A stretch of 64,000 bases of DNA. It comes from Candidatus Woesebacteria bacterium. Lineage in GTDB: Bacteria; Patescibacteriota; Microgenomatia; UBA1400; PJMF01. Positions within the stretch are counted from its first letter, which is position 1, and every line of letters begins with the position of its first letter. The notes beneath the pieces are model-generated. The model was not told the origin of the DNA. It worked only from the letters and a program-made list of their open reading frames with translations, and did not search any database. The stretch is from positions 40,558 to 104,557 of the forward strand of contig JASFHL010000004.1 in the NCBI GenBank assembly GCA_050123235.1, in the 5' to 3' direction. Position numbers and translations under genes: made by a program. Shown here piece after piece: positions 1 to 47,913 of this stretch.

Positions 1-1252
1 GGACAACTGTAGGAAAGACAGTCATCACTCCATTGGGAAAAAAACTATGTAAAGTGTATTCATTAGTGCCTACACCATAACCAAAACTAGGATTACGAAC
101 TAAAACATCTATTCCTTCTTCTAACAATCTTTTTCTAATAGGAATTCCTGCTCCTTCATAAAAAGCGTTAAAACTTAGCAATACTCTTGGAATAATGACA
201 TAAGAAAGTAAAATCAAAGATAAACTTAAATAGAGCAAAAATTTTTTTCTACTAAATTTATTAATCATGAGCAAAATTTCTTTAGCATATTTTTTGAAAA
301 TAAGCAAAAAAACTAAAAAACTAGCTATCCAAATAGAGCGGCTCTGTGTCAAAACAATAATTATCAAAGCCATTAACATTACTAAAACATCTTGTTTTCT
401 TTGCTTAATCAAAACAATTGGTAAATATAAACTAAGCAAAAACAGAGTTACTAAAGCTAATTGATTATGAAAAAGTAAAGTACCAGTAACTCTATGAACT
501 GCATTGTTTTCATCTAAACCCATAGCAAAACTACCACCATGAAGACTTTCTAAAGGAATTCCAATTCCAGATTGTAAAATAAACTGCCAAATGCTAATGC
601 AAAATTGAAAAACTATCACAGCAGCAATTACTACGAATAATAGGGGAAATTTTTTTCTTTTGGCAAAAAAGATATATAAAGTGATAAAAGATGCTAGTAA
701 AATTTGCATATATTGAGATAACCAAACCAAGGAAAAATCGAGAAATGGCGAAAACTTCAATGAAGAACCTAGCGCAATTATAAAGAAAATAAACAAAGAA
801 AGAAAAACAGGCGAAACTTTTTTAAATGAAGTCAATATTTGCCAATTATTATTTTTCCAAATATCTCTCAAAACCATTAGCAAAGATAAAACCCAAAAAA
901 CATTGGAAATATTGACCCCATATCCTTGCCAATAACCATCTTTATATTGTGGCAAAAGCATATCCCATCCTCTGATTATTTCCACAGCATAGTATTTATT
1001 AGGCGTAAAAAATTGAGATGAGAAAACAGCCATCAAAAAGCTAGTTATTGAGCAATCGCGAATTTTTAGATTTAGAAAAAAAGCAGCTATGGCGAATAAC
1101 AACACAATGACTTTGAAACTGGCAAAGCCACCAAAAACTAATAATAAAGATAAAACTATTAATAATAAAACTAAATAATTAGCATCGACTTTGATAAAAG
1201 ATAAAAAAGATTGGAATTTTTTATTTTTTATTGAAAAAAAAGATGTTATCAT
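1..1252 (-). CDS. O-antigen ligase/polymerase-family (Wzy_C-like) polytopic membrane protein, C-terminus outside window
   Basis: Continuous minus-strand reading frame from ATG at ~1250-1252 to window edge (not in ORF track because no stop in window); translation is highly hydrophobic with many TM helices and a 'GYGVGT...LHSFFPNG' segment resembling the conserved periplasmic loop of WaaL/Wzy_C proteins; sits in a glycosyltransferase locus. I did not verify every codon. Confidence 0.45.
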   Translation of the reverse strand, partial: MITSFFSIKNKKFQSFLSFIKVDANYLVLLLIVLSLLLVFGGFASFKVIVLLFAIAAFFLNLKIRDCSITSFLMAVFSSQFFTPNKYYAVEIIRGWDMLLPQYKDGYWQGYGVNISNVFWVLSLLMVLRDIWKNNNWQILTSFKKVSPVFLSLFIFFIIALGSSLKFSPFLDFSLVWLSQYMQILLASFITLYIFFAKRKKFPLLFVVIAAVIVFQFCISIWQFILQSGIGIPLESLHGGSFAMGLDENNAVHRVTGTLLFHNQLALVTLFLLSLYLPIVLIKQRKQDVLVMLMALIIIVLTQSRSIWIASFLVFLLIFKKYAKEILLMINKFSRKKFLLYLSLSLILLSYVIIPRVLLSFNAFYEGAGIPIRKRLLEEGIDVLVRNPSFGYGVGTNEYTLHSFFPNGVMTVFPTVV

Positions 1253-1286
1253 GTTTTGCAATTGTATTATATTTGTATTATTTTAA

Positions 1287-1471
1287 CAGTTAGGCTTTGT
1301 TCTTGTTAAAAAGTAGAACTTATGTTCAGTAAACTAATATTCTAAAAGTGAACCCTTGACGTTAGCCAGAGTTTCTGCGAAGCAGAAGAACATTCTGGCG
1401 AGAGTGGGTGAGTCTTTAGAATATTAGTTTACCAAACATATAAATAATTTAATCAACAAGAATAAAGCCTA
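1287..1471. repeat. ~185-bp nested palindromic element (outer 23-bp IR, inner 18-bp IR, GC-richer ~70-bp core) in divergent promoter region; distant relative of the MITE-like family
   Basis: aacagttaggctttgttcttgtt/aacaagaataaagcctaactgtt and gtaaactaatattctaaa/tttagaatattagtttac; core contains internal hairpins (gccagag..attctggc; ttctgc gaa gcagaa) and 'ttagccagag', '...gtgagtcttta' resembling family core. Confidence 0.6.
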
Positions 1472-1480
1472 ACTGTTAGA

Positions 1481-2680
1481 ATGAAAGCAAATAAAAAAAC
1501 AATTATCATCCCCTTCCAGATGCCTTGGGATTGGTCAGCGGATTATCAAAAGCAAACTTGTTTTGTCTTAGCGAAAAAACATCAGGTAATTGCATTCATG
1601 TATCTTGATGCTGTTTTTTTTCTAAAAAAATTTTTTCAGAAAGAAAAAAAATATCCTCAGCTTCCAAACATCAACTTTTATCAACCCTCATATTTTTTAC
1701 CCTTTCGCCGCCTTGCTCTCATAAACAAAATTAATCAAATTATCAATCTCAAAATTATTGCCTGGAAATACAATCAGGCTCAAAACCTGCTCCACTCATG
1801 GCTCAAAAATATTTTTAGCTTTGAGCAAAAACGAAAAAACGGAAAAGAAAAAAACTTGATTCTCTGGATTTTTGACCCTTCATTTTACTTTTATCCAAAA
1901 ACTCTCAAAGCTACTTCTATCTATGACTGTGTGGACTATCAATGGCGCATCAATGAAGCTGAAAAAAAACAAGTTCAAGCAATGGAAAAAAAATTAATTG
2001 ACAATGTTGACTATTTTCTTGTTAATTCCAAAGCCCTGCAAAAAATCCATCAAAAACAACGAGTAGCTGACTTACTAGTACCACAGGGTTTTCGTTCTGA
2101 TGATTTTCAAAAAGCAAAAGCCGCTAAATCGCTCCCAAAGAACAAACCATTAATAGGCTTTGTAGGAGCCTTAGGCTATCGCCTAGATTATCCGCTACTT
2201 TTTTCTCTCATTGAGAACAACCCCCAGTGGAACTTTGTACTTTGGGGGCCAAAACAAATTGAAAAAAATCTCAAAGCAGATGAGACAGCCAAAAACTTAA
2301 AAAAATTACTTCAGTATGAAAATGTAATCTCTGGCGAAAATAAAAACAGAAAAAAAATTCCTAGTATTATCAAACAATTTGACGTTTGTATGATTCCTTA
2401 CAATCCAAATTATGATTTCAATCGCTACTGCTATCCGATGAAGTTATTTGAATACTTTTACTTAGGCAAGCCAGTAATCTCTACAGAAATTGAAGAACTT
2501 AAATATTTTCCTAAATATGTGAAAATTAGCAATCAAGCTGCTGAATGGGAAAAGCATATTTGTCAGCTACTAAAAAAACCTTGGCAAAAAAAATATCAAC
2601 AGGAACAAAAACAGCTAGCAATAGAAAACAGTTGGGAGAAAAAGGTTGAGATGATTTTAAAATTAATTGCTCGCAGATAA
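1481..2680 (+). CDS. glycosyltransferase, GT1/GT4-like (C-terminal E-x7-E type motif 'PMKLFEYFYLGKPVIS')
   Basis: ORF track protein; C-terminal Rossmann-type GT-B motifs; genomic context. Confidence 0.55.
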   Translation: MKANKKTIIIPFQMPWDWSADYQKQTCFVLAKKHQVIAFMYLDAVFFLKKFFQKEKKYPQLPNINFYQPSYFLPFRRLALINKINQIINLKIIAWKYNQAQNLLHSWLKNIFSFEQKRKNGKEKNLILWIFDPSFYFYPKTLKATSIYDCVDYQWRINEAEKKQVQAMEKKLIDNVDYFLVNSKALQKIHQKQRVADLLVPQGFRSDDFQKAKAAKSLPKNKPLIGFVGALGYRLDYPLLFSLIENNPQWNFVLWGPKQIEKNLKADETAKNLKKLLQYENVISGENKNRKKIPSIIKQFDVCMIPYNPNYDFNRYCYPMKLFEYFYLGKPVISTEIEELKYFPKYVKISNQAAEWEKHICQLLKKPWQKKYQQEQKQLAIENSWEKKVEMILKLIARR

Positions 2681-2734
2681 GCACTGTATAATTAAGCCAG
2701 AAAAAACTATTAAAGCCTGTTAAAATCAATTTTC

Positions 2735-3712
2735 ATGAACTCAAAAATATTTATCGTTATCCCTACCATCCGCAATCTTGATTTTTTGAAAAAATGGAAG
2801 CAGCAATTCCAAAATGTCTCTATTATTATCTGTGAGGATCGTCCTCAAAAAACTATTAAAATTCCTAAAGTAGGAAAAAAAACTTATCATTATTCATGGC
2901 AAGAAATAGACAATGACTTAGGCAAAGATTCATGGATTGTACCCAGAAAAGTCTCTGGCATTCGTAATTATGGTTTTCTTAAAGCTTATCAAATGGGAGC
3001 TAAGATCATCATCACTATTGACGATGATTGTTATCCTGTTAAAGGGCACAAGTTGGTGGATCTGCACTCTCAAAATCTCCAACTTAAAGCTCCAGCAAAA
3101 TGGACCAATACTTACCCAGATGCCCGCCATCTCTATACCCGTGGCATGCCCTACCTAAATAGAGATGAACAGCCAGTGATGCTCAGTCATGGCTTATGGA
3201 CTCGTGTTTTAGATCATGATGGAGCTACTCATTTACAAAACTTAAAATTCAGAGCTAAATTTGCTGAACACTTCTTACAAATTATTCCCAGTGGGGCTTA
3301 TTTCCCAATGTGTTCTATGAATCTAGCTTTTAGAAGAGAAATAACAGCCTTGATGTATTTTCCCTTGATGGCTGAGGATAAAGAAGGTAAACAATGGGGA
3401 TATAATCGCTTTGATGATATTTGGGCAGGCATTTTTGCCAAAAAAATCATGGATCATTTAGGCTATGCTGTTGTCAATGGAGCGCCTTTTGTTAAACATA
3501 AAAAAGCATCTGATCCTTTTAAAAATCTGCAAAAAGAAGCCAAAGGTATTGAAACGAATGAGAAATTATGGAGAGCAGTAGATGAAGTAAAATTGACTAA
3601 AAAAACTACAGCAAGCTGTTATATTGAGCTGGCAAAAAAAACAAAATTCCCTAAGGAAAGATATTTTGAAAAACTAAGAGAGGCAATGCTGATTTGGGGA
3701 GAAATCTTATAA
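2735..3712 (+). CDS. reversibly glycosylated polypeptide / UDP-L-arabinopyranose mutase homolog (GT75 family)
   Basis: Near-diagnostic motif series shared with plant RGP/UAM: 'IVIPTIRNLDFL', 'DDDCY', 'FPMCSMNLAF', 'FDDIWAG', 'HKKASDPFKNLQKEAKGI' (recalled from plant RGP1, which has IVIPTIRNLDFL, DDDCF, FPMCGMNLAF, YDDMWAG, HSKASNPFVNLKKEYKGI). Confidence 0.75.
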   Translation: MNSKIFIVIPTIRNLDFLKKWKQQFQNVSIIICEDRPQKTIKIPKVGKKTYHYSWQEIDNDLGKDSWIVPRKVSGIRNYGFLKAYQMGAKIIITIDDDCYPVKGHKLVDLHSQNLQLKAPAKWTNTYPDARHLYTRGMPYLNRDEQPVMLSHGLWTRVLDHDGATHLQNLKFRAKFAEHFLQIIPSGAYFPMCSMNLAFRREITALMYFPLMAEDKEGKQWGYNRFDDIWAGIFAKKIMDHLGYAVVNGAPFVKHKKASDPFKNLQKEAKGIETNEKLWRAVDEVKLTKKTTASCYIELAKKTKFPKERYFEKLREAMLIWGEIL

Positions 3713-4933
3713 ATATTTTGTCAAAGATTTCAAAAAAGCTTTCTGGCTGTAACTCTTCTTTAATAAAGCACAATTTTTTTTAATCAATTGTTTTTTCTTA
3801 TTAGTGAGCATGGTATACCATTTGATTTTTTTAGCTAATGACTTAATTGATAAGCTATTAACAATCAAATCATCATTTACTCTTCCTAACAATTCAGGGG
3901 TTGCACCAGATCTAAAACCTAATACAGGAGTATTCAAAATCAAAGATTCTAGAGTAGTAAGTCCCAAGGTTTCATATTGAGCTGAAGGAAGAATTGTTAA
4001 ATCAGCAAGTTTAAAATACTTTAAGACATCATCATGTTTAATAGCGCCTAAAAAGAATACATTTTTATATAAAGAATGTCTGAAATAATAATCCCACAGA
4101 GAAAAATAATATTCTATTCTATCACTTGGACCTAGAATAAAGACTTTTATGTTAATCGTATTTTTAATCTCATTAAAAAACTTGATCGCCTTTAATAATA
4201 GATGGACTCCCTTCCTCGGCTCTAATCTAGAACCAATCACAATTAAAAAATCTTTATTAGATACAGAAATATCTTTTCTAGTAATGCTTTTTAATTTATC
4301 CTCATCTATAAAAATAGGGGGATTAATTTTTTCTATATTGTGACTTGAAAGTTTGAAATAATTTATCAGTATTTGTTTAGAAAAATCACTAAAGACAAAA
4401 ATTAAATCTACCTTTTTTAAAATAATTTTTTGCAAATGAAAGAAAAACACATTAGCAAGCTTAAATCTGATTCTTGCAAGCAATTTCCATTGTCTTAAAT
4501 CTTTTTTGGAATACAGGCTTTCTCTCTCTAAAGTTAAGGCGCCATGGAAAAAAAACATTACTTTAAGTTTTTTACTAATAGAACTAAGCAAAAAACCCAA
4601 ACCTGAAGACGTTAAGTTGAGGAAAATATAATCAATTTCATGCTTTGACAGAATTTTTGTTATTAATTTCTTTGTGTTTAGAGCTATAGTAAAACATGTT
4701 TTCAAATAAGATTTGCTTGGCTTTAAATTGTAAAAATAAACTTTTTCACAGGAATTTCTAGCCTGTTTTAGTAAAGGTCGATTTAAACTACTTTTAAAAA
4801 TTCCTGTTAATAAAAAAACATTAGCTTCATGGGACAATGCCTTCAGCATATTAAGATTAACTCTAGTCCCGCCTCCTAACTCCAAAAAATCAAAAATAAT
4901 TAGTATGTTTTTTCCTTGCAATGATTTTTTCAT
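3707..4933 (-). CDS. glycosyltransferase family 4 (GT-B, retaining)
   Basis: 'EPRKGVHLLLKA...LTILPSAQYETLGLTTLESLILNTPVLG' typical GT4 C-terminal domain. Confidence 0.7.
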   Translation of the reverse strand: MKKSLQGKNILIIFDFLELGGGTRVNLNMLKALSHEANVFLLTGIFKSSLNRPLLKQARNSCEKVYFYNLKPSKSYLKTCFTIALNTKKLITKILSKHEIDYIFLNLTSSGLGFLLSSISKKLKVMFFFHGALTLERESLYSKKDLRQWKLLARIRFKLANVFFFHLQKIILKKVDLIFVFSDFSKQILINYFKLSSHNIEKINPPIFIDEDKLKSITRKDISVSNKDFLIVIGSRLEPRKGVHLLLKAIKFFNEIKNTINIKVFILGPSDRIEYYFSLWDYYFRHSLYKNVFFLGAIKHDDVLKYFKLADLTILPSAQYETLGLTTLESLILNTPVLGFRSGATPELLGRVNDDLIVNSLSIKSLAKKIKWYTMLTNKKKQLIKKNCALLKKSYSQKAFLKSLTKYL

Positions 4934-6092
4934 AAAACTCTATACTTTTTTGAGCTGTTTCTTTTAAATTATATCTAGATGAAACAGTTTGAAAAGCGGC
5001 TTCTCCTATTTTTTTACGTAACTCACTACTTGATAATAAAAGACTAATTTTATCAACTGAATCCTTGATATCGTTTTTTTTAATTAACAAACCTGTTTTT
5101 TTGTGTTCAATAATATTTGCTATACCACCCACTTTACTAGCAACTACAGCCTTCTTAAGACTCATAGCTTCAATAATAGTTAAACCAAAGGATTCATATA
5201 ATGATGGAAAAATACAGACATCAGCTAATCGGTATAGTTTTTCCAAAAGATTTCGATCGCCAACATATCCCAGAAAGTGAACCTTCAATAAATCTTCAAC
5301 AGAGAAATGCTGATGTACAAAGTTCTTAAGTCCCAAGTTATCTTCACCAACAATTATAAAATTGGTGAAAGGATGTTTTTTTAGAATATATTTGATTGAT
5401 TTTAAAAAAACAAATATCCCTTTTCTCTTTTCCAATCTACCAAGAAAGAGAACATTTAAATTTTTTTCCTCAGAGGATGCGAGAATTGAATGCTGCTGTT
5501 TTTCCTTTGGTATCTTAATACCTATAGGAAGAATTTTAATTTTTTTATTTTTTAATTTATATATCCTTTTGCAAAAGCTGGCATGTTTGATGGTACTGCT
5601 TGTTAAGACAGTATCTTTACAAGAAACAAAAATTTTTTCCATTGTTGATATTAATCTGGCTGATAAACTATCGTCTTCTTCTATTTGGTATAAGGTTTTA
5701 CTAACAGTATGCAATCTGACCACAATAGGGATATTTAAGAAACCGTTAAAAAATAAAGTAAATATCGAACCTTCAGCCTCCCAATTAGGAAACTCTATCA
5801 GTGAAATTCCTTGTTGTAAATGAATGTAGATTAAATAAAAAGCGATCTGAAAATTATGTATAAAAAATTTTAAAAATCTTTTATTTAGAAAACCAGATTT
5901 AGGAAGCCACCCAAGCGAGTAAATAAAAATATTCCCCCTTTGAAAATGACCCTTCTGTTGCGATCTGGTTAGAATTATAATTTTATTCTTTTTGCTAATT
6001 TCTTTTGCCAGATTTTCAATATAAATTCCTATACCTGAATTTTTTTTATTAGTTAAAATAGGGTAATTCTTATAAACAAAACAAATATTCAT
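4890..6092 (-). CDS. glycosyltransferase family 4
   Basis: 'LGRLEKRKGIFVFL...CIFPSLYESFGLTIIEAMSLKKAVVASKVGG' GT4 motifs; overlaps the downstream GT4 by 44 nt (operon). Confidence 0.7.
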   Translation of the reverse strand: MNICFVYKNYPILTNKKNSGIGIYIENLAKEISKKNKIIILTRSQQKGHFQRGNIFIYSLGWLPKSGFLNKRFLKFFIHNFQIAFYLIYIHLQQGISLIEFPNWEAEGSIFTLFFNGFLNIPIVVRLHTVSKTLYQIEEDDSLSARLISTMEKIFVSCKDTVLTSSTIKHASFCKRIYKLKNKKIKILPIGIKIPKEKQQHSILASSEEKNLNVLFLGRLEKRKGIFVFLKSIKYILKKHPFTNFIIVGEDNLGLKNFVHQHFSVEDLLKVHFLGYVGDRNLLEKLYRLADVCIFPSLYESFGLTIIEAMSLKKAVVASKVGGIANIIEHKKTGLLIKKNDIKDSVDKISLLLSSSELRKKIGEAAFQTVSSRYNLKETAQKSIEFYEKIIARKKHTNYF

Positions 6093-6134
6093 ATCTTGAT
6101 GCTATATAAAAAATATCATATATAATAAGACCTC

Positions 6135-7058
6135 ATGGCTAAAATCTCTGTCGTCGTCTGCACGTATAATAGGAGCCCCCAAATTAATTTCTTCCTAAAA
6201 TACTTTTTACAACAAAAATTCACAAACTATGAATTGCTTATTATAGACCAAAGTACTAATAATAAAACAAAAAAAACTATAAAAAAATATCAAAATAGAC
6301 TAACAATTATTTATCATAGACTAAAGAAAAAAGGAATATCACTAGCTCGTAATTTTGCTATCAAAAAGGCTAAAGGCGAAATCATAGCTTTTACTGATGA
6401 CGATTGTATTGCTGATAAAAATTGGTTAAAGCAGATAAATCAGTCTTTCAAAAAATATAAAAACATCAACCTTATTTTTGGACAAACCTTACCTTTTCGG
6501 CCAGAAAAAAATAAAGGTTTAATCTGTCCTAGTATATTTACAAAAAAAACTATAAAAATTATCCAGCAACCTTGTGTTCATTATAAAAATATTGGCTTTG
6601 GTAACAATATGGCCTTCAGAAAAAAAATTTTTAATCAGATAGGAGTTTTTAAAACATGGTTAGGAATTGGAAGTATTGGTAAATCCGCAGATGATGCAGA
6701 GCTTGCTATCCGAGCATTAATTAAAGGCAACAAAATTTTGTACAAGCCAGATATTAAAATTTACCACAACCGTTGGCTAACAATAAAACAATATAAAAAT
6801 TTAGAACTGACTTATAACTGCGGAGAAATGGCATGCTATGGATACTTTGCTTTTCAAAAATACAATTTTGCTAATAAATTAGTCAAAGACAATTTGATGC
6901 ATTTTTTAAGAAACTGCCAACAAACTGTTATTTCAGTATTCAAATTTAAAAAAAATAGCTTTGTTAATTTCAGGGATCTGACAAAAGAATTTATATTTAA
7001 ATTAAAAGGTATAATAATAGCTTTTTATTTTTATCAATTTGATCCTTTAGTGAGATGA
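6135..7058 (+). CDS. glycosyltransferase family 2
   Basis: 'ISVVVCTYNR...' N-terminal GT-A fold, DxD-like 'FTDDDCIADKNWL'. Confidence 0.7.
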   Translation: MAKISVVVCTYNRSPQINFFLKYFLQQKFTNYELLIIDQSTNNKTKKTIKKYQNRLTIIYHRLKKKGISLARNFAIKKAKGEIIAFTDDDCIADKNWLKQINQSFKKYKNINLIFGQTLPFRPEKNKGLICPSIFTKKTIKIIQQPCVHYKNIGFGNNMAFRKKIFNQIGVFKTWLGIGSIGKSADDAELAIRALIKGNKILYKPDIKIYHNRWLTIKQYKNLELTYNCGEMACYGYFAFQKYNFANKLVKDNLMHFLRNCQQTVISVFKFKKNSFVNFRDLTKEFIFKLKGIIIAFYFYQFDPLVR

Positions 7059-7108
7059 AAAAATTAACAAAATTTATTCAATTAAGGAATCTAGATATAT
7101 CCTTCAAA

Positions 7109-7834
7109 CTATTTTAAATAATAACTCTTCAAAATATCTTTCTTACCATCTCTCTTCACCTTCCCCTTTTCCAACCACAAAATCCGTTCACAATTCTTTT
7201 TTAAAAACTCCAACCAGTGACTGACGATCACAATTGTCTTTTTCTTCTCAAAAAACTCATCGATTTTTTCTTCTGTTTTTATTCTGAATCTTTCATCACC
7301 TACAGCTACATTTTCATCTAAGACTAGAATATCAGGATCAGAATGCACTGCCACTGCAAATCCCAACCTCAAAGTCATGCCCGCAGAATAAGTATATAGC
7401 GGAGCATCGATAAACTGACCAATGTCTGCGAACTCAACAATTTTTTTAAACTTCTGTTTAATTTCTTTTTTGCTCATCCCTATTACCAGGCCATTCAAAA
7501 AAATATTTTCCTCACCTGTTAAATCAGGATGAAAGCCAGCTGATAAATCTATGAGTGATACGATTTTACCATTGGTTTTAACTTTACCTCTGCTTGGGGT
7601 AGTAATGCCAGTAATAATTTTTAGTAATGTAGTTTTACCAGAGCCATTTGCTCCAATGATACCAACTTTCTCTCCTTGATAAATTTTTAGATCAATTTTA
7701 TTTAGAGCTTTAAATTTTTCTTTACGACGACGACGGATAATGTTTTCAGCAAAGGTGGGTTTCTCATGGTGAAGAGTATAAATTTTAGTAATTTTTTGAA
7801 GTGAAACTGCCAATTTTCTTTTTTTCATGCACAT
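7109..7834 (-). CDS. ABC transporter ATP-binding protein, polysaccharide/teichoic-acid export type (Wzt/TagH/KpsT-like)
   Basis: Walker A 'GANGSGKTT', signature 'YSAGMTLRLGF', Walker B 'ILVLDE'; paired with ABC-2 permease. Confidence 0.8.
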   Translation of the reverse strand: MCMKKRKLAVSLQKITKIYTLHHEKPTFAENIIRRRRKEKFKALNKIDLKIYQGEKVGIIGANGSGKTTLLKIITGITTPSRGKVKTNGKIVSLIDLSAGFHPDLTGEENIFLNGLVIGMSKKEIKQKFKKIVEFADIGQFIDAPLYTYSAGMTLRLGFAVAVHSDPDILVLDENVAVGDERFRIKTEEKIDEFFEKKKTIVIVSHWLEFLKKNCERILWLEKGKVKRDGKKDILKSYYLK

Positions 7835-7876
7835 TGGATGGTAAATCAGGAGAGATAATCTGACAAGACGAGAACT

Positions 7877-8656
7877 TTACAACCAATCATCAAAATTAGG
7901 ACTTTCTCTGCGAAAAACAAAAATTGCTAACATCGCTAAAATTAGCGTACTCAACAAGCTGATCATTAAATAAAAAGTCTGCGGGGCAGGCAAAGCTAGA
8001 ATTGAAAAACGGCTAGCCTCGATTAAGGCTGTCATTGGATTAAGGTAAAACAAGAAGTGTAATGATTTTGGAATTAAATCAAGAGTATAAACCACTGGAG
8101 TGGCATAAAACCACAGCGGCATGATTGCTTTGACTACAAAATTAACATCCCGGAATCGAACATTTAAACTAGAGAAAAAAAGCGACAAAGCACTAGTTAA
8201 AACAATTAGCCAAATTAAAATTAGAGGCAAGAAAATTAATCGCGAAAAATTCATTTTTCCTAAAATTAAGACTACTATTAATAATAGTACAAGAGAAATT
8301 AAAAGATGAAATAAATTGGAAAGAACTATTGATAAAGTAATTGCTTCCCGAGGCAGCTTAGCTTTTTGAATTAAAGTTCTTTCAAAAACATAAATTGGGG
8401 TGCTTTTCATCACTGTCATCGAGAAAAAGTTCCAGGGCAGTAGGCCAACAAATAAAAATAAAAAGTAATTATCAATTTTGACTGGTATAAAAAATTGAAA
8501 CACAAAACCAATTACTAACATTTGCAAAAGTGGATTCAAAATTACCCATAAAAAGCCTAAAATTGCATGCTTGTAACGAGCTTTGATTTCTTTTTCAGTG
8601 AGGCTTAATAAAAACTCTAACCAATAATGAAAGTATCTTTTTGAAATTATTTTCAC
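7877..8656 (-). CDS. ABC-2 type transporter permease (Wzm/TagG-like)
   Basis: ~260 aa, 6 predicted TM helices, immediately upstream of Wzt-like ATPase. Confidence 0.7.
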   Translation of the reverse strand: MKIISKRYFHYWLEFLLSLTEKEIKARYKHAILGFLWVILNPLLQMLVIGFVFQFFIPVKIDNYFLFLFVGLLPWNFFSMTVMKSTPIYVFERTLIQKAKLPREAITLSIVLSNLFHLLISLVLLLIVVLILGKMNFSRLIFLPLILIWLIVLTSALSLFFSSLNVRFRDVNFVVKAIMPLWFYATPVVYTLDLIPKSLHFLFYLNPMTALIEASRFSILALPAPQTFYLMISLLSTLILAMLAIFVFRRESPNFDDWL

Positions 8657-8731
8657 AGCACTGAGCAGTATACCTCAAAACTCCCTATTGACGCCTATTA
8701 AAAAATATCTGTATTCTAGATATGTACTATT

Positions 8732-10870
8732 ATGATTAATGTTGTTGGTACTTCACCAATCCCGACCAGTTCTCAAACCCCTGCTGGACAAGCTGCCCCA
8801 CAGACTACTCCTCAAGCTGCCGCTCCAACACCTCCTCCGGCTGCAGCTCAAAAAGCTGGTGGTGCTGGAGTAACTCCTCCCCCTAGTGCTAAACCACCAG
8901 GTAATAAATCTGCTATGAGTCCTCAACTGCAAAATTTATTTAAACAGAAAAAATTATCACCCAAGATGATTATAGCTATTTTGCTATTGGTGTTATTAGT
9001 GGTGGGAGTAATCGTAGGTTTTATTCTCAGTCAACAAAAACAAGAAATTAGGCAGAAAGCTGCAGTAGGTGATTATTGCTTAACTGATGCACAATGCAAC
9101 GTTGCTGGTGGGGAATACTGTGCTCCAAATCATTACTGTGCTATCAGACCTACTGGTGGTGGCTGTCCTAATAATGACCACACTGCCACTAGGTGGATAA
9201 GATTTACCTGCCCAGATGGTTGTACCATAACCCATGAGCCAGGTGATCCCCCAGAGGGCCGATATCGCTGTTATTCAAATCGAGAAGACTTCACAACTCC
9301 AGTTTCCTTAAATGGCGAATGTGGACAAGTAGATGTTTTGGATGAGAATGGAGATTTCTGTGGCTGGACTGAATATAATTGCGATGGCCCATGTGCTGGA
9401 GATGGTGAAGGAGGCACTCCTGTTCCTGGTGCTGCTACTAGTACGCCTGCTCCAACTGGTGTAGGTGGAGTTGAACCAACTCCAATCAGCTATAGTTGTA
9501 ACAGTAGCTGTACCAATACTAGCCAATGCCAAGGAGTCAATCCAAACTATCGCTGCTACACTAGAGCTGAGGGTGAACCAAACTGGAATTTGGCTGAATC
9601 ATGGAATAGCTTCAGTATCTCAGAGATGCCTTCAGCTTGTACCTCTGTTACTGCTTCTGGCGCTTACTATACACCAACTGAATTTAGACAATCAGTTTGG
9701 TGCAATGGAGGTACTGTTTACTTCCGCACTGTTCCTTTAGGTAGCAACGGTGAACCTAATTATGGGAGTGCTGGTAGCTGGAATACTAGCAGTATTAGTG
9801 CTGAGGGTCTACCATCATCCTGTACTAGTATTACTGCCTATGATGCTTATTCTACTCCAACTGAACTTAGACAAGCTTTATGGTGTGGTACTACTGTTTA
9901 TTTCCGCACTGTACCATTAAATAGTAGTGGTGAGCCTAATTTTAGTAATGTTGGCAGCTGGAATAGTAGTAGCATTAGTGCTGAAGGTCTACCATCATCC
10001 TGTACTACTATAACTGGCTATGGAGCTTACATGACCGACTCCAACCTAAGACAATCCCTTTTATGTAACGGTAATGTGAGTTATTACCATGATGTACCAT
10101 TGAACAGTAGCGGAGAGCCTAATTTTAGTAATGTTGGCAGCTGGAATAGCATGAGTTTATCTGAATTTGGATTAGCATCATCTTGTACTACTATAAGTGC
10201 TTATGCAACAAGTAATAATGGAAATACACTTAGACAGGTATTCTGGTGCAATGGCACTAATGGTTATTTCCGTGCCGTAGGTATTGGCAGTCGCTGCAGG
10301 TTGGAAAGCAATCCTAGCTCCATGACTTGTTCTGTGGCCACAGCAGCAGCCCCAACTGCTACTCCAGAACCAGGTGTCTGCGGTTCCTCAGGTTGTAGTC
10401 TTGACAATCCATGTAGCGGTCAACTGGTTTGTATTACAGCTAATGATGGCAACAACTACTGTTCTGAAGCTGATCAAAGCGTCCGAGATGCCTGTGCTAT
10501 CAATCCAAATACAACGACTTGCTGTACAGCACCAACCAGTGCTGTTGCTACTGCTACTCCAACTGATACTGTGGTCAATACCACTATCGATTGTAATGAT
10601 GCTTGTGTGCAGAATTCAGATTGCAGTAATGTCAGTCACATCTGCTGGAATGGTCAATGTCGCTTGTCAGAAAATCCTTCTGACGAACTATGCAGATTAC
10701 CTGGCGGGGGTACCACTACTACTGTCACTTACGAAACCATCCAACAGAGACAAATTCAACCAACCCTACCTTCTCAACTACCAAGCTCTGGTCCTGCTGA
10801 TTGGTTAAAATACCTCAAGGCTGGACTAGGTGTCCTAGGCTTTGGGCTACTACTCTTCTTATTACTCTAA
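8732..10870 (+). CDS. large Cys-rich surface protein: Pro/Ala-rich N-terminal tail, signal-anchor TM with 'GFILSQQKQEIRQKA' motif, 4 x ~60-aa Cys-containing repeats, Cys-rich C-terminal module, C-terminal 'LPSSGPADWLKYLK'+TM tail
   Basis: ORF track protein; internal repeats visible at DNA and protein level (~9572-10293); many N-x-S/T sequons; codon composition raises local GC. Confidence 0.7.
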   Translation: MINVVGTSPIPTSSQTPAGQAAPQTTPQAAAPTPPPAAAQKAGGAGVTPPPSAKPPGNKSAMSPQLQNLFKQKKLSPKMIIAILLLVLLVVGVIVGFILSQQKQEIRQKAAVGDYCLTDAQCNVAGGEYCAPNHYCAIRPTGGGCPNNDHTATRWIRFTCPDGCTITHEPGDPPEGRYRCYSNREDFTTPVSLNGECGQVDVLDENGDFCGWTEYNCDGPCAGDGEGGTPVPGAATSTPAPTGVGGVEPTPISYSCNSSCTNTSQCQGVNPNYRCYTRAEGEPNWNLAESWNSFSISEMPSACTSVTASGAYYTPTEFRQSVWCNGGTVYFRTVPLGSNGEPNYGSAGSWNTSSISAEGLPSSCTSITAYDAYSTPTELRQALWCGTTVYFRTVPLNSSGEPNFSNVGSWNSSSISAEGLPSSCTTITGYGAYMTDSNLRQSLLCNGNVSYYHDVPLNSSGEPNFSNVGSWNSMSLSEFGLASSCTTISAYATSNNGNTLRQVFWCNGTNGYFRAVGIGSRCRLESNPSSMTCSVATAAAPTATPEPGVCGSSGCSLDNPCSGQLVCITANDGNNYCSEADQSVRDACAINPNTTTCCTAPTSAVATATPTDTVVNTTIDCNDACVQNSDCSNVSHICWNGQCRLSENPSDELCRLPGGGTTTTVTYETIQQRQIQPTLPSQLPSSGPADWLKYLKAGLGVLGFGLLLFLLL
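9572..10293 (+). repeat. intragenic tandem repeats: 4 x ~177-183 bp (~60 aa) units inside the 8732-10870 CDS
   Basis: Units start GEPN(W/Y/F)...SWN.SS.S..GL.SSCT.I.AY...LRQ..WC; units 3 and 4 share ~40 identical nt at their 5' ends. Confidence 0.75.
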
Positions 10871-10940
10871 TCTTAGAATAAAATCAAAGAAGGAAAAATA
10901 TAGATTGCTAGATATATATTCTGAAGAAGTGAATAAGCTA

Positions 10941-11098
10941 AAATTTACTATAAATAAATATTGCAGTGTTAAAGCGAGGTCTGGCTAAGCTTAATCTAGC
11001 ACTACATTTACTACCGAGCTTTACTGAGTGAGCTTTATATCTTAAAAATTAATAAGAGGTTGTCGCGAACGACTGCAATATTTATTTATACTAAATTT
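10941..11098 (+). repeat. MITE-like palindromic repeat, full copy A (27-bp TIR, conserved core)
   Basis: TIR aaatttactataaataaatattgcagt / actgcaatatttatttatactaaattt; core gttaaagcgaggtctggctaag...ctaccgagctttactgagtgagc...gcgaacgactg. Confidence 0.8.
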
Positions 11099-11219
11099 GG
11101 ACTGTGTTTTTCGAGCTCAGGATATTTTTTCTTCTTTGACTTTGCTCTAGAAATTGTATTATGATGATTATTAGGCAATAATTTTTGTAAAATTTTAATT
11201 TAGTGAGCAACAAAGAAAT

Positions 11220-12773
11220 ATGACTGATTCCATGAATCCTATGAATCAACAAAGCTCTAATTCAACAGCTAGCAGTAAGCCTAATTCTCAAAACCTCTTC
11301 CAAGGGATAACTAAGAAGATGGCTCAGAATACTAATGTTCAACGCGCAGCATTAAGCCAATTGGGAGCAAGTTCACTAGATAAAGCAAATCCCAACCCAT
11401 CCAGTACAAACAGCCAAAATCTATTAGACTCAATGCCTAGTTCAATAGAGGCAAAACCAAGCCAAGCTCCTATTAAAACAGCATTAAAACAACCATTGCC
11501 TAACACTCCAGCAGATCAAGGTGCAACATTAAAGCAAGCAAGCCCTCCTCCAACTCAAGAAAGTCTTACTGCTCCCAAAACAAAGTCATCAAAAAAAATA
11601 TTTTTAAGTATTGCAGTACTTTTATTTCTTGTATTTGGAGCTGGCGCTGGCTTTATTCTAAGTCAACAGTCACAAGACATTAACCGTCAAGCTACCACTC
11701 CAGAAACTGCCAAACCAACCCTAGCTGTGCTACCTGCCCCTGTTGCCACGCTTTCTGAAAAAGATCAAATTGCTAAAAAGGTACTTACTTGTTTAGACGG
11801 GATGAAGGATAACTCAGGACTTTATCCATATAAACAAAATTGTGACGAAAAAGGTAATTGTGAATCTTTACCAGATAATAATTCTGGTCCACGCCCTATT
11901 TATGCTAGATTTCATTACTACCAAAAAACTAAGGATCCTCAAGAACTTGCTATTTTTAAAAAAGATTTATCAATTAATAATACAGCTGTTTCAGGCATTC
12001 AGAATAACTTCTACAACTGTAAATTAATCGCTGAGATTCAAGCTAGCATTGATGAAATGTGGAACAACAATTTCTTGATGAAGCAAGAAAGAAATCAAGC
12101 TAGAAATATTTGCCTTCTTAGTAAAAACAACCAGCAATTAGAGCAAATCGCAGATCAAAACTTGGACAGTGAATTGGCTAAAAAACCTGATTTTGATCAA
12201 GTATATGACGATCTATCAAGTACAAAGTCAAGTAGTCAAGAAATTTTGCTCAAAACTGACCTCGCTAGTGCTAGCTATTACAGTTCTGAATATGCAGGTC
12301 GTTATTCATTACTCACCCAGAATAGAGAGACTGAATTAAAAAGAGCGATATTCTTTTACAATCAAGCCTTGCTTATGCTCTTTCAAGAAAAACAAACAGC
12401 TAATTTTAAAGATATTTGTACTTTTGGAGAAAGTTCGCTTGATCTCTACAGAGTTACTCAGGATGAGGATTATCTTAAGCTAGCCAAATATCTTTGGAGC
12501 TGGGGTGCTGATCAAACTAGCCATGACTTTTCTACCAAAACAATCTGTGCCTATTTCACTAATAGCCTTTACCAAGAAACACAAGAAGAATCTTATCAAA
12601 CAGCCAGAAGTAATTTAATTAATGATTTGATTGAAAATAATCTTGATAAAACTGGACAAATGAGTTTTGTGACTGGAGATGGCTGTTTTAATTCTGATAA
12701 AGATGCAGCTGGAAAGGTTAGTAAATCAAGTATAGATAATAGCTTATTAGTGAAAGTATTGCTAGCTGAGTAA
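11220..12773 (+). CDS. membrane-anchored secreted protein: Ser/Asn/Pro-rich N-terminal region, TM with 'GFILSQQSQDINRQA' motif, ~370-aa extracytoplasmic domain; no C-terminal anchor motif
   Basis: ORF track protein; shares N-terminal signal-anchor motif with flanking genes. Confidence 0.6.
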   Translation: MTDSMNPMNQQSSNSTASSKPNSQNLFQGITKKMAQNTNVQRAALSQLGASSLDKANPNPSSTNSQNLLDSMPSSIEAKPSQAPIKTALKQPLPNTPADQGATLKQASPPPTQESLTAPKTKSSKKIFLSIAVLLFLVFGAGAGFILSQQSQDINRQATTPETAKPTLAVLPAPVATLSEKDQIAKKVLTCLDGMKDNSGLYPYKQNCDEKGNCESLPDNNSGPRPIYARFHYYQKTKDPQELAIFKKDLSINNTAVSGIQNNFYNCKLIAEIQASIDEMWNNNFLMKQERNQARNICLLSKNNQQLEQIADQNLDSELAKKPDFDQVYDDLSSTKSSSQEILLKTDLASASYYSSEYAGRYSLLTQNRETELKRAIFFYNQALLMLFQEKQTANFKDICTFGESSLDLYRVTQDEDYLKLAKYLWSWGADQTSHDFSTKTICAYFTNSLYQETQEESYQTARSNLINDLIENNLDKTGQMSFVTGDGCFNSDKDAAGKVSKSSIDNSLLVKVLLAE

Positions 12774-12781
12774 AACAAGTA

Positions 12782-13906: not shown

Positions 13907-13974
13907 GCGATTTTTGAATATCCCAAATAAATTATATTTAAATTATATTAGAGTTATTGTTAAAAGAAGGATTG

Positions 13975-14166
13975 TTGAAACTAACAGTTTAAAATTTACT
14001 ATAGATAAATATTAGAGCGTTGAAGCGAGGTCTGGCTAAAATCGAATTAGCACATAACTTACTACCGAGCTTCACCGAGTGAGCCTTGTATCTTTAAAAT
14101 AAATACAATGTTGCAGCGAACGACTCTAAGATTCATCTATAGTAAATGAGACTGTTTCTGAGTTTA
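13975..14166 (+). repeat. MITE-like palindromic repeat, full copy B (extended ~45-bp imperfect TIR)
   Basis: Same core as copy A, ~85% identical; between surface-protein gene and tRNA. Confidence 0.8.
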
Positions 14167-14230: not shown

Positions 14231-14304
14231 GCGCGCGTAGCTCAATTGGTTAGAGCACCAAGCTTATACCTTGGTGGTTCCAGGTTCGAGTCCTGGCGCG
14301 CGCA
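14231..14304 (+). tRNA. tRNA-Ile, anticodon UAU (decodes AUA); no encoded CCA
   Basis: Manual cloverleaf fold: acceptor GCGCGCG/CGCGCGC, D-stem GCTC/GAGC, anticodon stem CCAAG/CTTGG with loop cTTATAc, T-arm CCAGG-TTCGAGT-CCTGG, discriminator A. Confidence 0.8.
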
Positions 14305-14362
14305 CAAAAACACTTAAAAAGATATTTCTTGACTTTTGTAATAGAATATATGTGTATTTATT

Positions 14363-44340: not shown

Positions 44341-44344
44341 AAAC

Positions 44345-44731: not shown

Positions 44732-44764
44732 AGTTTTAAAGTTAGCGAAAAATTCAAAAAAAAT

Positions 44765-45220: not shown

Positions 45221-45224
45221 AACT

Positions 45225-45557: not shown

Positions 45558-45677
45558 CGACTCTTAAATAAAAACCAAATAATAAGAGTGAACTGATTGA
45601 CAGACGAAAAAAAATCTTGATATGATATAATTTAGAAAAAGAATTTTGATTTTAAAAACAATTAAAAAGGAGAAACA

Positions 45678-47910: not shown

Positions 47911-47913
47911 ATT

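What the first reader, a model, noticed from the sequence alone, without database searches (positions are those of the whole stretch)
2735..3712. Plant-type RGP / UDP-arabinopyranose mutase (GT75) homolog in a bacterial glycan locus
The 325-aa product aligns along its full length with plant reversibly glycosylated polypeptides. It has their hallmark motifs (IVIPTIRNLDFL, DDDC[YF], FPMC[SG]MNLAF, [FY]DD[IM]WAG, [HS]KAS[DN]PF.NL[QK]KE.KGI). In plants this enzyme interconverts UDP-Arap and UDP-Araf. Bacterial GT75 members are rare, and its presence implies furanosyl-arabinose or a related mutase product in this organism's surface glycan. The biochemical role of bacterial RGP homologs is essentially unexplored.
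Basis: partly seen in the sequence, partly recalled or inferred. Interest (0 to 1): 0.65.

Follow-up and report, generated by a model that had tools for sequence, protein, structure and literature searches.

The report
Plant-like GT75 sugar mutase in CPR bacterium
A Candidatus Woesebacteria (candidate phyla radiation) genome carries an intact bacterial relative of the plant enzyme that makes the ring-contracted (furanose) form of UDP-arabinose; it lies inside a surface-sugar gene cluster and is a new member of a known enzyme family whose exact sugar is still unproven.

Summary
ORF 2735..3712 (+, 325 aa) is a full-length GT75 / reversibly glycosylated polypeptide. Pfam PF03214 gives E 3.8e-56. 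It is 40-43% identical to authentic plant and algal class-1 UDP-arabinopyranose mutases. The AlphaFold model (pLDDT 94) superposes on rice UAM2 (TM 0.86) and on the bacterial mutase MtdL (TM 0.75).

All catalytic residues are present: DDD 96-98, Arg136, Arg143, Asp160, Arg225, Asp228 and His255. All eight sugar-contact positions are in the plant class-1 state. It is therefore most likely an active, Mn2+-dependent, flavin-free NDP-sugar pyranose/furanose mutase. It would feed the surrounding glycosyltransferases, the Wzy_C protein and the ABC-2 exporter.

- The family is not especially rare. It has 1,381 clusters at 50% identity, occurs in 565 GTDB species, and forms a well-supported Microgenomates clade.
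- Two bacterial members, MtdL and Hyg20, are already characterised, and MtdL has crystal structures.
- Arabinose itself is not established. No UDP-pentose pathway genes lie in the annotated part of the window (about the first 52 kb), and only one UXS-like gene was found across roughly 80 related loci. UDP-galactose remains a live alternative.

Verdict: new member of a known kind, moderate-to-low interest.

The parts
2735..3712 (+). GT75 / RGP-family NDP-sugar pyranose-furanose mutase gene (325 aa)
   Evidence: ORF. Pfam PF03214 E 3.8e-56. PDB sequence hits OsUAM2 and MtdL. AF2 pLDDT 94. Foldseek TM 0.86 and 0.75. 40-43% identity to plant class-1 UAMs.
3020..3028 (+). Codons for the central DxD motif, D96-D97-D98. 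It corresponds to OsUAM1 D110-D112 and MtdL D109-D111. The third Asp coordinates Mn2+ in MtdL.
   Evidence: D96 and D98 are invariant and D97 is present in 43 of 45 diverse family members. Role taken from PMC9937993. The motif is DDD (class 1, active), not DDN (class 2).
3140..3142 (+). Codon for Arg136. It is equivalent to the autoglycosylated, nucleophilic arginine OsUAM1 R158 / MtdL R159.
   Evidence: Invariant in 45 of 45 members. Position mapping from HMMER alignments and alignment A2. Role.
3161..3163 (+). Codon for Arg143, equivalent to OsUAM1 R165, which is essential for mutase activity.
   Evidence: Present in 35 of 45 members. Role from PMC6861824.
3407..3418 (+). Codons R225-F-D-D228. 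R225 corresponds to MtdL R257 (beta-phosphate and sugar binding). D228 corresponds to MtdL D260 (proposed general base).
   Evidence: R225 is present in 43 of 45 and D228 in 45 of 45 members. R257 is replaced in inactive class-2 proteins: Thr in OsUAM2 (alignment), and non-conserved in AtRGP5.
3497..3499 (+). Codon for His255, equivalent to MtdL H287, the second Mn2+ ligand.
   Evidence: Invariant in 45 of 45 members. Lost in inactive class-2 proteins: Arg in OsUAM2, and non-conserved in AtRGP5.
2954..2956 (+). Codon for Ser74, the variable sugar-pocket position equivalent to MtdL D87. Ser is the plant class-1 state.
   Evidence: Across 75 labelled loci this position splits into S (28), A (29) and D (18), and the split tracks clade and gene context. 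A D87S change abolishes the GDP-L-Fuc mutase activity of MtdL.
1481..2680 (+). GT-B-fold glycosyltransferase (399 aa) immediately upstream on the same strand with a 54-nt gap. It is a conserved partner of the mutase and a candidate furanosyltransferase.
   Evidence: Pfam Glycos_transf_1 E 1.6e-8. The same gene family lies at position -1 in 9 loci and is present in 13 loci. It overlaps the RGP gene by 8 nt in a Chisholmbacteria genome. No terminator was found in the gap. It has no PDB relative by sequence.
1..1252 (-). Wzy_C (O-antigen ligase/polymerase-like) membrane protein. Its 3' end runs off the left edge of the window.
   Evidence: The JGI gene call is 512 aa with PF04932. Translation of 2-1252 on the - strand is open throughout. 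It forms part of the conserved block DUF4330-Wzy_C-GT-B-RGP in the window's clade.
3707..4933 (-). GT4 glycosyltransferase (408 aa), convergent with the mutase gene; the two 3' ends overlap by 6 nt.
   Evidence: Pfam Glycos_transf_1 E 2.2e-21.
4890..6092 (-). GT4 glycosyltransferase (400 aa).
   Evidence: Pfam Glycos_transf_1 E 5.7e-38.
6135..7058 (+). GT2 glycosyltransferase (307 aa). This is the gene family most often found near RGP homologs and a second candidate furanosyltransferase.
   Evidence: Pfam Glycos_transf_2 E 8.8e-24. The family occurs in 31 of 76 loci, 11 times at position +1. PDB relatives are generic GT2 enzymes.
7109..7834 (-). ABC transporter ATPase (Wzt-like).
   Evidence: Pfam ABC_tran E 1.9e-23. 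The family recurs in 16 of 76 loci.
7877..8656 (-). ABC-2 type permease (Wzm-like) for polysaccharide export.
   Evidence: Pfam ABC2_membrane E 2.4e-20. The family recurs in 17 of 76 loci.

Best explanation
The gene encodes a catalytically competent, class-1-type GT75 enzyme. It is a cytoplasmic, Mn2+-dependent, flavin-independent mutase that interconverts the pyranose and furanose forms of a nucleotide sugar.

By analogy with MtdL and the plant UAMs, the proposed mechanism runs as follows. The nucleotide diphosphate is held by Mn2+ bound to Asp98 and His255 and by Arg225. Asp228 deprotonates Arg136, which attacks C1 of the sugar to give the transient Arg-sugar adduct (the 'reversible glycosylation'). 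The ring then opens and recloses through O4, and the NDP-furanose is released.

The most likely substrate is UDP-beta-L-arabinopyranose, giving UDP-L-arabinofuranose; UDP-D-galactopyranose is the main alternative. The furanosyl donor would be used by the co-located glycosyltransferases: the conserved upstream GT-B partner, the GT2 and the GT4s. They would build a furanose-containing surface glycan that is handled by the adjacent Wzy_C protein and the Wzm/Wzt-type ABC-2 exporter of this Woesebacteria cell.

Shown here: family membership, fold, conservation of every catalytic residue, and the glycan-locus context. Inferred: enzymatic activity, metal dependence, nucleotide and sugar identity, and which glycosyltransferase uses the product.
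For: Family and fold:
- Pfam RGP at 191 bits over the full length.
- A profile of 45 bacterial homologs hits OsUAM2 at E 1.6e-50 and MtdL at E 6.9e-40.
- The AF2 model has pLDDT 94 and pTM 0.93. Foldseek gives OsUAM2 TM 0.86 and MtdL TM 0.74-0.76, and the next-best fold scores TM 0.43 or less.

Catalytic machinery:
- D96, D98, R136, D160, M195, D228 and H255 are invariant in 45 diverse members. D97, N196 and R225 are present in 43 of 45.
- Their roles were established by structures and mutagenesis of MtdL and by plant mutants.
- The markers that separate active class 1 from inactive class 2 are all in the active state: DDD rather than DDN, R225 and H255.

Substrate type:
- 21 of 23 key positions equal the plant class-1 state.
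- All 8 positions that contact the sugar in MtdL are in the plant state: S74, D96, R136, D160, M195, N196, R225 and D228.
- P10 replaces MtdL T13, and the T13P change weakens GDP binding about 28-fold.
- S74 places the protein in the plant-like subtype of the three subtypes found in bacteria.

Context:
- In 76 related loci the neighbours are GT2 (31 loci), SDR epimerase/dehydratase (22), GT4 (20 or more), DUF4330 (19), ABC-2 permease and ATPase (17 and 16), Wzy_C (15 and 14), the GT-B partner (13), a priming phosphoglycosyl transferase (11) and WecG/TagA (8).
- In the window's own clade the block DUF4330-Wzy_C-GT-B-RGP is conserved.
Against: - No biochemical data exist for any member of this bacterial branch.
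- Nucleotide specificity is uncertain. Of the three positions proposed to select the base (MtdL 13, 42 and 86, which are P, D, D in plants), only the first is plant-like; the query has R36 and V73.
- The first plant DxD motif (DGD at 52-54) is not conserved; the query reads ED-R.
- No UDP-glucose dehydrogenase, UDP-xylose synthase or UDP-xylose 4-epimerase gene is seen in the annotated ~52 kb of the window.
- Across about 80 loci with 10-kb flanks there was no UGD-like gene and only one UXS-like gene.
- The SDR enzymes next to RGP are heterogeneous. Only one passes the GalE cut-off, and others look RmlB- or LegB-like.
- Plant UAMs also convert UDP-Galp, so a plant-like pocket does not exclude galactose.
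- The rest of the genome could not be inspected.
Confidence: 0.7

Rival explanations
1. The enzyme is chiefly a UDP-D-galactopyranose to UDP-D-galactofuranose mutase. It would be a flavin-free substitute for the FAD-dependent Glf/UGM in a cofactor-poor CPR cell, and the locus would make a Galf-containing glycan.
For: Plant GT75 enzymes (OsUAM1, AtRGP2) produce UDP-D-Galf from UDP-D-Galp. UDP-Gal needs only a GalE-type epimerase, and a bona fide GalE (289 bits against a 262-bit cut-off) lies two genes from RGP in L026; GalE-like SDRs lie at -1 in L035 and L067. No UDP-pentose pathway genes are co-located. GT2 enzymes, the family of the known galactofuranosyltransferase GlfT2, are the most frequent neighbours.
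Against: In the characterised plant enzymes, galactose conversion is described as inefficient compared with arabinose. All eight sugar-contact positions match the arabinose-preferring plant class-1 enzymes. Presence or absence of glf in this genome could not be checked. The window's GT2 shows only generic GT2 similarity and nothing specific to GlfT.
Confidence: 0.2
2. It is an MtdL/Hyg20-type GDP-sugar mutase acting on GDP-L-fucose or GDP-L-galactose, supplying L-Fucf or L-Galf.
For: [quoted passage not shown] The catalytic core is shared. A D74 subtype resembling MtdL exists in other bacterial phyla.
Against: At the six positions that distinguish MtdL from plant UAMs (T13, N42, S86, D87, S228, Q229) the query has P10, R36 or P37 depending on the alignment (neither is Asn), V73, S74, M195 and N196. 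That is zero of six in the MtdL state. The T13P, S86D and D87S changes each weaken or abolish GDP binding or activity in MtdL. Sequence similarity to MtdL is much weaker (49 bits) than to OsUAM2 (105 bits). No GDP-mannose dehydratase or GDP-fucose synthase gene was identified nearby.
Confidence: 0.06
3. It is not a working mutase. It would instead be a self-glycosylating arginine glycosyltransferase or primer, or a non-catalytic scaffold like the plant class-2 RGPs (OsUAM2, AtRGP5).
For: GT75 proteins were first known only as reversibly autoglycosylated polypeptides, and class-2 members are inactive as mutases. The best PDB match by sequence and by fold is the class-2 protein OsUAM2.
Against: The residues lost in class-2 proteins are retained here and across the whole bacterial family: DDD rather than DDN, R225 rather than Thr, and H255 rather than Arg. 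OsUAM2 ranks first because it is the only plant GT75 chain returned by the PDB sequence and fold searches; identity to class-1 UAMs is 40-43% against 27% to OsUAM2. Strong purifying conservation of the full active site across more than 500 species argues for catalysis.
Confidence: 0.04

Closest known systems
Plant and green-algal class-1 UDP-L-arabinopyranose mutases (OsUAM1/3, AtRGP1-3, HvUAM1; CAZy GT75, Pfam PF03214, EC 5.4.99.30)
   Same: Collinear over the full length at 40-43% identity. The IVIPTIRNLDFL 12-mer is identical. DDDC, FPMC(S/G)MNLAF, (F/Y)DD(I/M)WAG and KAS(D/N)PF motifs are shared. The same residues occupy the autoglycosylated Arg, the second Arg, the Mn2+ ligands, the general base and all eight sugar-contact positions. 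Both are single-domain proteins without signal peptide or transmembrane segment.
   Different: The protein is bacterial (Woesebacteria) and about 40 residues shorter, lacking the plant N- and C-terminal extensions. The first DxD motif (DGD) is not conserved: R36 stands in place of D54. V73 replaces the Asp proposed to exclude guanine. The third DxD reads DHD, not DYD. The gene sits in a prokaryotic glycan operon rather than serving Golgi cell-wall synthesis. Activity is untested.
MtdL (Marinactinospora thermotolerans, A201A pathway) and Hyg20 (Streptomyces hygroscopicus, hygromycin A pathway): bacterial GT75 GDP-L-galactose / GDP-L-fucose pyranose mutases; PDB 7xpr, 7xps, 7xpt, 7xpu, 7yua, 8hl8
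   Same: Same fold (TM 0.74-0.76). Same catalytic set: DxD, R159/R136, D195/D160, R257/R225, D260/D228 and H287/H255. Both are bacterial and both are predicted to depend on Mn2+ and not on FAD.
   Different: Only about 20% identity. The query differs at all six positions tied to GDP and sugar specificity (T13, N42, S86, D87, S228, Q229). MtdL and Hyg20 act in actinomycete antibiotic biosynthesis, whereas this gene lies in a cell-surface glycan locus.
Plant class-2 RGPs (OsUAM2, PDB 8cid; AtRGP5)
   Same: Best solved-structure match: TM 0.86, 27% identity, E 3e-29 by sequence.
   Different: Class 2 has DDN and lacks the Mn2+-binding His and the beta-phosphate Arg, and it is inactive. The query keeps DDD, H255 and R225.
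UDP-galactopyranose mutase (Glf/UGM), the flavoenzyme route to furanose nucleotide sugars in bacteria
   Same: Analogous reaction, a ring contraction of an NDP-pyranose through a covalent C1 adduct. It has the same biological role of supplying furanosyl donors to surface-glycan glycosyltransferases.
   Different: Unrelated sequence and fold, and dependent on FAD. The GT75 route uses an arginine nucleophile and Mn2+. There is no homology, so this is a functional analogue only.

Membership tests
GT75 / RGP family (Pfam PF03214) | Full-length match to the family profile above the curated cut-off | tested here: met
   191.2 bits against a 23.8-bit cut-off; residues 3-321 against profile positions 4-333 of 342.
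GT75 / RGP family (Pfam PF03214) | GT75 fold: an N-terminal Rossmann-like GT-A region, a family-specific core and a C-terminal helical region | tested here: met
   AF2 model pLDDT 94. Foldseek gives OsUAM2 TM 0.86 and MtdL TM 0.74-0.76, and other GT-A folds score TM 0.43 or less. Fold description.
GT75 / RGP family (Pfam PF03214) | Central DxD motif (OsUAM1 110-112; MtdL 109-111), which binds Mn2+ and the nucleotide sugar | tested here: met
   D96-D97-D98. D96 and D98 are invariant in 45 of 45 members.
GT75 / RGP family (Pfam PF03214) | Conserved autoglycosylated, nucleophilic arginine (OsUAM1 R158; MtdL R159) | tested here: met
   R136 lies in the TRGMPY motif and is invariant in 45 of 45 members.
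GT75 / RGP family (Pfam PF03214) | Second Mn2+ ligand His (MtdL H287), beta-phosphate Arg (R257), general-base Asp (D260) and Asp195 | tested here: met
   H255, R225, D228 and D160 are all present and are invariant or near-invariant.
GT75 / RGP family (Pfam PF03214) | Reversible autoglycosylation and divalent-cation-dependent NDP-pyranose mutase activity | not testable with these tools
   Needs purified protein and an HPLC or MS assay.
Class-1 (active) UDP-L-arabinopyranose mutase, EC 5.4.99.30 | DDD (not DDN), together with the His and Arg that are lost in inactive class-2 proteins | tested here: met
   DDD, H255 and R225 are present, whereas OsUAM2 has DDN, Arg and Thr at these positions.
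Class-1 (active) UDP-L-arabinopyranose mutase, EC 5.4.99.30 | Second essential arginine (OsUAM1 R165) | tested here: met
   R143.
Class-1 (active) UDP-L-arabinopyranose mutase, EC 5.4.99.30 | Sugar-contact residues in the plant class-1 state (positions equivalent to MtdL D87, D109, R159, D195, S228, Q229, R257, D260) | tested here: met
   S74, D96, R136, D160, M195, N196, R225 and D228 are identical to six plant and algal class-1 sequences.
Class-1 (active) UDP-L-arabinopyranose mutase, EC 5.4.99.30 | First DxD motif DGD (OsUAM1 52-54) and the uridine-selecting residues (P, D, D at MtdL positions 13, 42, 86) | tested here: inconclusive
   P10 is plant-like, but R36 replaces D54 and V73 replaces the Asp. 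The review notes that the first motif is not conserved across GT75.
Class-1 (active) UDP-L-arabinopyranose mutase, EC 5.4.99.30 | A supply of UDP-L-Arap in the same organism (UGD, then UXS, then UDP-Xyl 4-epimerase, or a salvage route) | tested here: inconclusive
   None was found in the annotated ~52 kb of the window. Across about 80 related loci there was no UGD-like gene and one UXS-like gene.
Class-1 (active) UDP-L-arabinopyranose mutase, EC 5.4.99.30 | Preferential interconversion of UDP-L-Arap and UDP-L-Araf | not testable with these tools
   Enzyme assay required.
MtdL/Hyg20-type GDP-sugar pyranose mutase | GDP- and sugar-specificity residues T13, N42, S86, D87, S228 and Q229 | tested here: not met
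   The query has P10, R36 or P37 depending on the alignment (neither is Asn), V73, S74, M195 and N196, which is zero of six in the MtdL state.

The most novel reading that the evidence does not exclude
Microgenomates-type CPR bacteria use this flavin-free, Mn2+-dependent GT75 mutase as their only route to furanose sugars. With it they decorate their cell surface, possibly including the adjacent Cys-rich repeat proteins or pilins through the Wzy_C protein, with L-arabinofuranose, a sugar usually regarded as typical of plants. The three pocket subtypes (S74, A74, D74) would then be three distinct, uncharacterised substrate specificities. The eukaryotic UAMs would descend from this old bacterial family by horizontal transfer.
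Probability: 0.15. Interest if true: 0.6.

Novelty: new member of a known kind. Interest (0 to 1): 0.35.

Why it matters
If the enzyme is active as predicted, it gives a concrete biochemical handle on the almost unknown surface-glycan chemistry of candidate-phyla-radiation bacteria, whose episymbiotic lifestyle depends on cell-cell contact. It would also extend the cofactor-independent route to furanosyl nucleotide sugars from plants and two actinomycete antibiotic pathways to a broad set of environmental bacteria. The S74, A74 and D74 subtypes offer ready-made natural variants for defining what sets sugar specificity in GT75 enzymes, which are of interest for enzymatic synthesis of scarce NDP-furanoses. 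The significance is limited: the family, fold and mechanism are already described, and automated pipelines already give these proteins the correct family name.

Tried and rejected
1. Two context look-ups failed because I trimmed the wrong end of minus-strand ORFs. I repeated them correctly.
2. I searched the MtdL paper's supplement for an alignment of characterised GT75 proteins and found none held as text. Instead I recalled an OsUAM1 sequence from memory. I checked it against the published numbering (DxD at 52, 110 and 182; R158; R165; 364 aa). I used it only as bait to retrieve authentic plant sequences.
3. I tried to infer the sugar from the SDR enzymes adjacent to RGP. They are heterogeneous: one true GalE, one UXS-like plus epimerase-like pair in L047, and others RmlB- or LegB-like below cut-offs. 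This is not diagnostic.
4. I looked for UDP-glucose dehydrogenase with an N-terminal motif screen (GxG[YF]VG in ORFs of 370-500 aa) and for UDP-xylose synthase by BLAST across all fetched loci. There were no UGD-like genes and a single UXS-like gene.
5. A neighbour-joining tree of 209 sequences rooted on MtdL placed the plant clade as sister to the Microgenomates clade. Bootstrap support for that split was 0 of 100; only the Microgenomates clade itself was supported, at 84 of 100. I make no claim about the origin of plant UAMs.
6. The unnamed sequences nearest the plant clade are metagenomic singletons. The closest, P0233, sits on a eukaryotic contig, so it adds nothing about bacteria.
7. The GH127 beta-L-arabinofuranosidase lead for ORF 11220..12773 did not hold up. 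The hit stays below the Pfam cut-off (18.8 against 24.9 bits). PDB hits are marginal GH76 matches (E about 0.7). The protein has no homolog in any other RGP locus. I rejected it as evidence for arabinose.
8. PDB sequence searches for the two candidate partner glycosyltransferases gave nothing for the GT-B. The GT2 gave only generic GT2 relatives.
9. The promoter and terminator scan around the gene did not exceed the shuffled expectation.
Full report
OBSERVATION. It matches Pfam PF03214 (reversibly glycosylated polypeptide) from end to end, with E 3.8e-56 and 191 bits against a 23.8-bit cut-off. NCBIfam has no model for it. Four of the five quoted motifs are present literally. The identical protein is on record as a 'hypothetical protein' of a Candidatus Woesebacteria MAG. 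It occurs on a 115.9-kb JGI contig and on an independent 8.5-kb Logan contig with the same neighbours. The window is therefore from a Patescibacteria (CPR) genome. It has low G+C (about 27-41%) and a single tRNA gene.

FAMILY AND FOLD. By sequence, the best solved relatives are rice UAM2 (8cid, E 3e-29) and the bacterial mutase MtdL (7xpr, 7yua and related entries, E 4e-12). A profile built from 45 diverse bacterial homologs raises these to E 1.6e-50 and 6.9e-40 and aligns MtdL over residues 7-338. An AlphaFold2 model built on that alignment is confident, with pLDDT 94 and pTM 0.93. By Foldseek it matches OsUAM2 at TM 0.86 and MtdL at TM 0.74-0.76. The next-best folds are generic GT-A enzymes at TM 0.43 or less. 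To compare with active plant enzymes I recalled an OsUAM1 sequence from memory and checked it against the published residue numbering. I used it only as bait to fetch authentic database sequences. The window protein is 40-43% identical over its full length to six class-1 UAMs from angiosperms, a moss and green algae.

ACTIVE SITE. The MtdL structural paper (PMC9937993) and the plant UAM review (PMC6861824) define the functional residues. These are the central DxD, whose third Asp binds Mn2+; a His as second Mn2+ ligand (MtdL H287); and the autoglycosylated, nucleophilic Arg (OsUAM1 R158 / MtdL R159). They also include a second essential Arg (OsUAM1 R165), the beta-phosphate and sugar-binding Arg (R257), the proposed general base Asp (D260) and Asp195. 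The window protein has all of them: D96-D97-D98, H255, R136, R143, R225, D228 and D160. Among 45 diverse homologs, D96, D98, R136, D160, M195, D228 and H255 are invariant. The residues that inactive class-2 proteins have lost are retained here (DDD rather than DDN; R225; H255). In OsUAM2 these read DDN, Thr and Arg. The gene thus encodes a class-1-type enzyme that is very probably active.

SUBSTRATE. At 21 of 23 tabulated key positions the protein equals the plant class-1 state. This includes all eight positions that contact the sugar in MtdL (S74, D96, R136, D160, M195, N196, R225, D228). None of the six positions that distinguish the GDP-sugar enzymes MtdL and Hyg20 (T13, N42, S86, D87, S228, Q229) is in the MtdL state. 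The mutations T13P, S86D and D87S each damage GDP binding or activity in MtdL. This favours a UDP-sugar and a plant-like pocket, so UDP-L-Arap is the leading candidate. The inference is not secure, for four reasons:
- Two positions proposed to select the base are neither plant-like nor MtdL-like (R36 and V73).
- Plant UAMs also convert UDP-Galp.
- I found no UDP-pentose pathway genes in the annotated ~52 kb of the window, and in about 80 related loci there was no UGD-like gene and one UXS-like gene.
- The SDR enzymes near RGP are heterogeneous.

Position 74, equivalent to MtdL D87, divides the bacterial family into three subtypes that follow clade and context. S74 is the plant state and includes the window's clade, which is rich in GT2, GT4 and GT-B partners. 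A74 marks Gottesman- and Roizman-type Microgenomates, linked to a long Wzy_C protein. D74 is the MtdL state, and its named members are mostly from non-CPR phyla. These subtypes probably reflect different sugar specificities.

CONTEXT. In the window the gene is flanked by several glycan-synthesis genes:
- a truncated Wzy_C gene (1..1252, - strand);
- a GT-B glycosyltransferase 54 nt upstream on the same strand (1481..2680);
- two convergent GT4 genes;
- a GT2;
- a Wzt/Wzm-type ABC-2 exporter.

No terminator separates the GT-B gene from the mutase gene, but the promoter scan was uninformative.

I called ORFs in 76 non-redundant loci around homologs from GTDB species genomes and clustered the neighbours. 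The recurrent families were GT2 (31 loci), SDR epimerase/dehydratase (22), GT4 (20 or more) and DUF4330 (19). ABC-2 permease and ATPase (17 and 16), Wzy_C (15 and 14), the GT-B partner (13, at -1 in 9), a phosphoglycosyl transferase (11) and WecG/TagA (8) also recurred. The window's clade keeps the block DUF4330-Wzy_C-GT-B-RGP. In a Chisholmbacteria genome the GT-B and RGP genes overlap by 8 nt. The biological role is therefore clearly surface-glycan synthesis. The GT-B partner and the GT2 are the best candidates for the furanosyltransferase; this is an inference.

HOW COMMON, HOW KNOWN. An exhaustive HMMER scan of 1.84 billion cluster representatives found 1,381 clusters at E <= 1e-3 and 345 at E <= 1e-30. 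A scan of one genome per GTDB species found 565 encoding loci among 185,579 species. Of the 80 best-matching loci kept, most named ones are Patescibacteria. Others come from Chloroflexota, Planctomycetota, Acidobacteriota, Bacteroidota, Nitrospirota, Armatimonadota and further phyla. The family is sparse (about 0.3% of species) but not a curiosity. Within Microgenomates it forms a coherent clade with 84 of 100 bootstrap support. CAZy listed 9 bacterial and 43 archaeal GT75 entries in 2019 and 308 entries in total in 2023. MtdL and Hyg20 are characterised bacterial members. [quoted passage not shown] None of the top-listed papers from a search combining RGP/UAM terms with Patescibacteria/CPR terms contained an RGP term. 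Searches on bacterial UDP-arabinofuranose returned only plant literature.

EVOLUTION (NOT RESOLVED). A neighbour-joining tree placed the plant and algal UAMs as sister to the Microgenomates clade, but that split had 0 of 100 bootstrap support. The nearest non-plant sequence lies on a eukaryotic contig. I make no claim on direction or donor.

VERDICT. This is a new, uncharacterised member of a known enzyme family, GT75. It very probably acts as a Mn2+-dependent, flavin-free NDP-sugar pyranose/furanose mutase for a CPR surface glycan. UDP-L-arabinose is the leading candidate substrate but remains unproven. Novelty: new member of a known kind. Interest: 0.35.

Noticed in passing
window 14231-14305 (+): The only tRNA gene in the window is tRNA-Ile with anticodon UAU (TAT), found by ARAGORN and by Rfam at 74.5 bits. 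From my own knowledge, most bacteria read AUA with a lysidine-modified CAU tRNA made by TilS, so a genomic UAU tRNA-Ile is unusual and may indicate loss of tilS in this lineage.
   Followed up: no
window 8732-10870 (+), 12782-13906 (+); also L004, L006, L013, L035, L083/L084: A 712-aa protein with no Pfam match has a Pro/Ala-rich N-terminus, a transmembrane segment and about four ~60-aa Cys-containing repeats. It also has a Cys-rich C-terminal module and a tail reading 'LPSSGP' followed by a hydrophobic stretch. The C-terminal module is shared with the 374-aa ORF downstream and with proteins near the RGP gene in related genomes. In a 73%-identical relative's genome this type of protein directly follows RGP. 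It is possibly a sortase-type surface protein and a candidate glycosylation target.
   Followed up: partly
window 11220-12773 (+): A 517-aa membrane-anchored protein has a C-terminal domain that gives a sub-threshold hit to the GH127 beta-L-arabinofuranosidase catalytic domain (E 9e-4, 18.8 against 24.9 bits). It gives marginal hits to GH76 mannanases in the PDB. It has no homolog in the other 80 RGP loci. It is probably an (alpha/alpha)6-barrel glycosidase-like protein of unknown family.
   Followed up: partly
L016, L019, L029, L032, L036, L053 (also L021, L025, L028 with one gene between): In a Gottesmanbacteria-type clade (the A74 subtype) the RGP homolog sits divergently next to dnaA-dnaN, at the presumed replication origin. 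A long Wzy_C protein of about 600-750 aa follows it. This fixed, core-genome-like position contrasts with the variable glycan-island context seen elsewhere.
   Followed up: no
L018, L040, L045: Some loci carry two RGP paralogues within a few genes of each other. This would fit two furanose donors, or a catalytic and non-catalytic pair like plant class 1 and class 2.
   Followed up: no
window 43885-46716 (+) and 20118-22451 (-): There is an array of six small paralogous genes with PF18895 T4SS_pilin matches. A VirB4-like ATPase (DUF87/TrwB) lies elsewhere in the window. This fits the Patescibacteria type IV secretion or conjugation-like apparatus described in the literature listed.
   Followed up: no
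window 46749-48921 (-): Adjacent genes encode a mevalonate diphosphate decarboxylase-like protein and a GHMP kinase. A UPP synthase (Prenyltransf) lies at 19297-20034. This suggests a mevalonate-type isoprenoid route that could supply the lipid carrier for the glycan locus.
   Followed up: no
window 1-8000 versus 8000-14000: The glycan locus is markedly AT-rich (G+C 0.28-0.34) compared with the adjacent surface-protein genes (0.39-0.41). Such a drop is typical of horizontally exchanged polysaccharide gene clusters.
   Followed up: no
GTDB loci L004, L005, L008-L011, L013, L014, L025, L026, L028, L031, L032, L035, L046 and others: Many public records titled 'uncultured Pseudomonadales' or 'Gammaproteobacteria bacterium' carry RGP genes that fall inside the Microgenomates clade and share its synteny. 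One such isolate is even named HK-STAS-PATE-15. These record titles look like taxonomic mislabels of Patescibacteria MAGs and should not be read as evidence for GT75 in Proteobacteria.
   Followed up: partly
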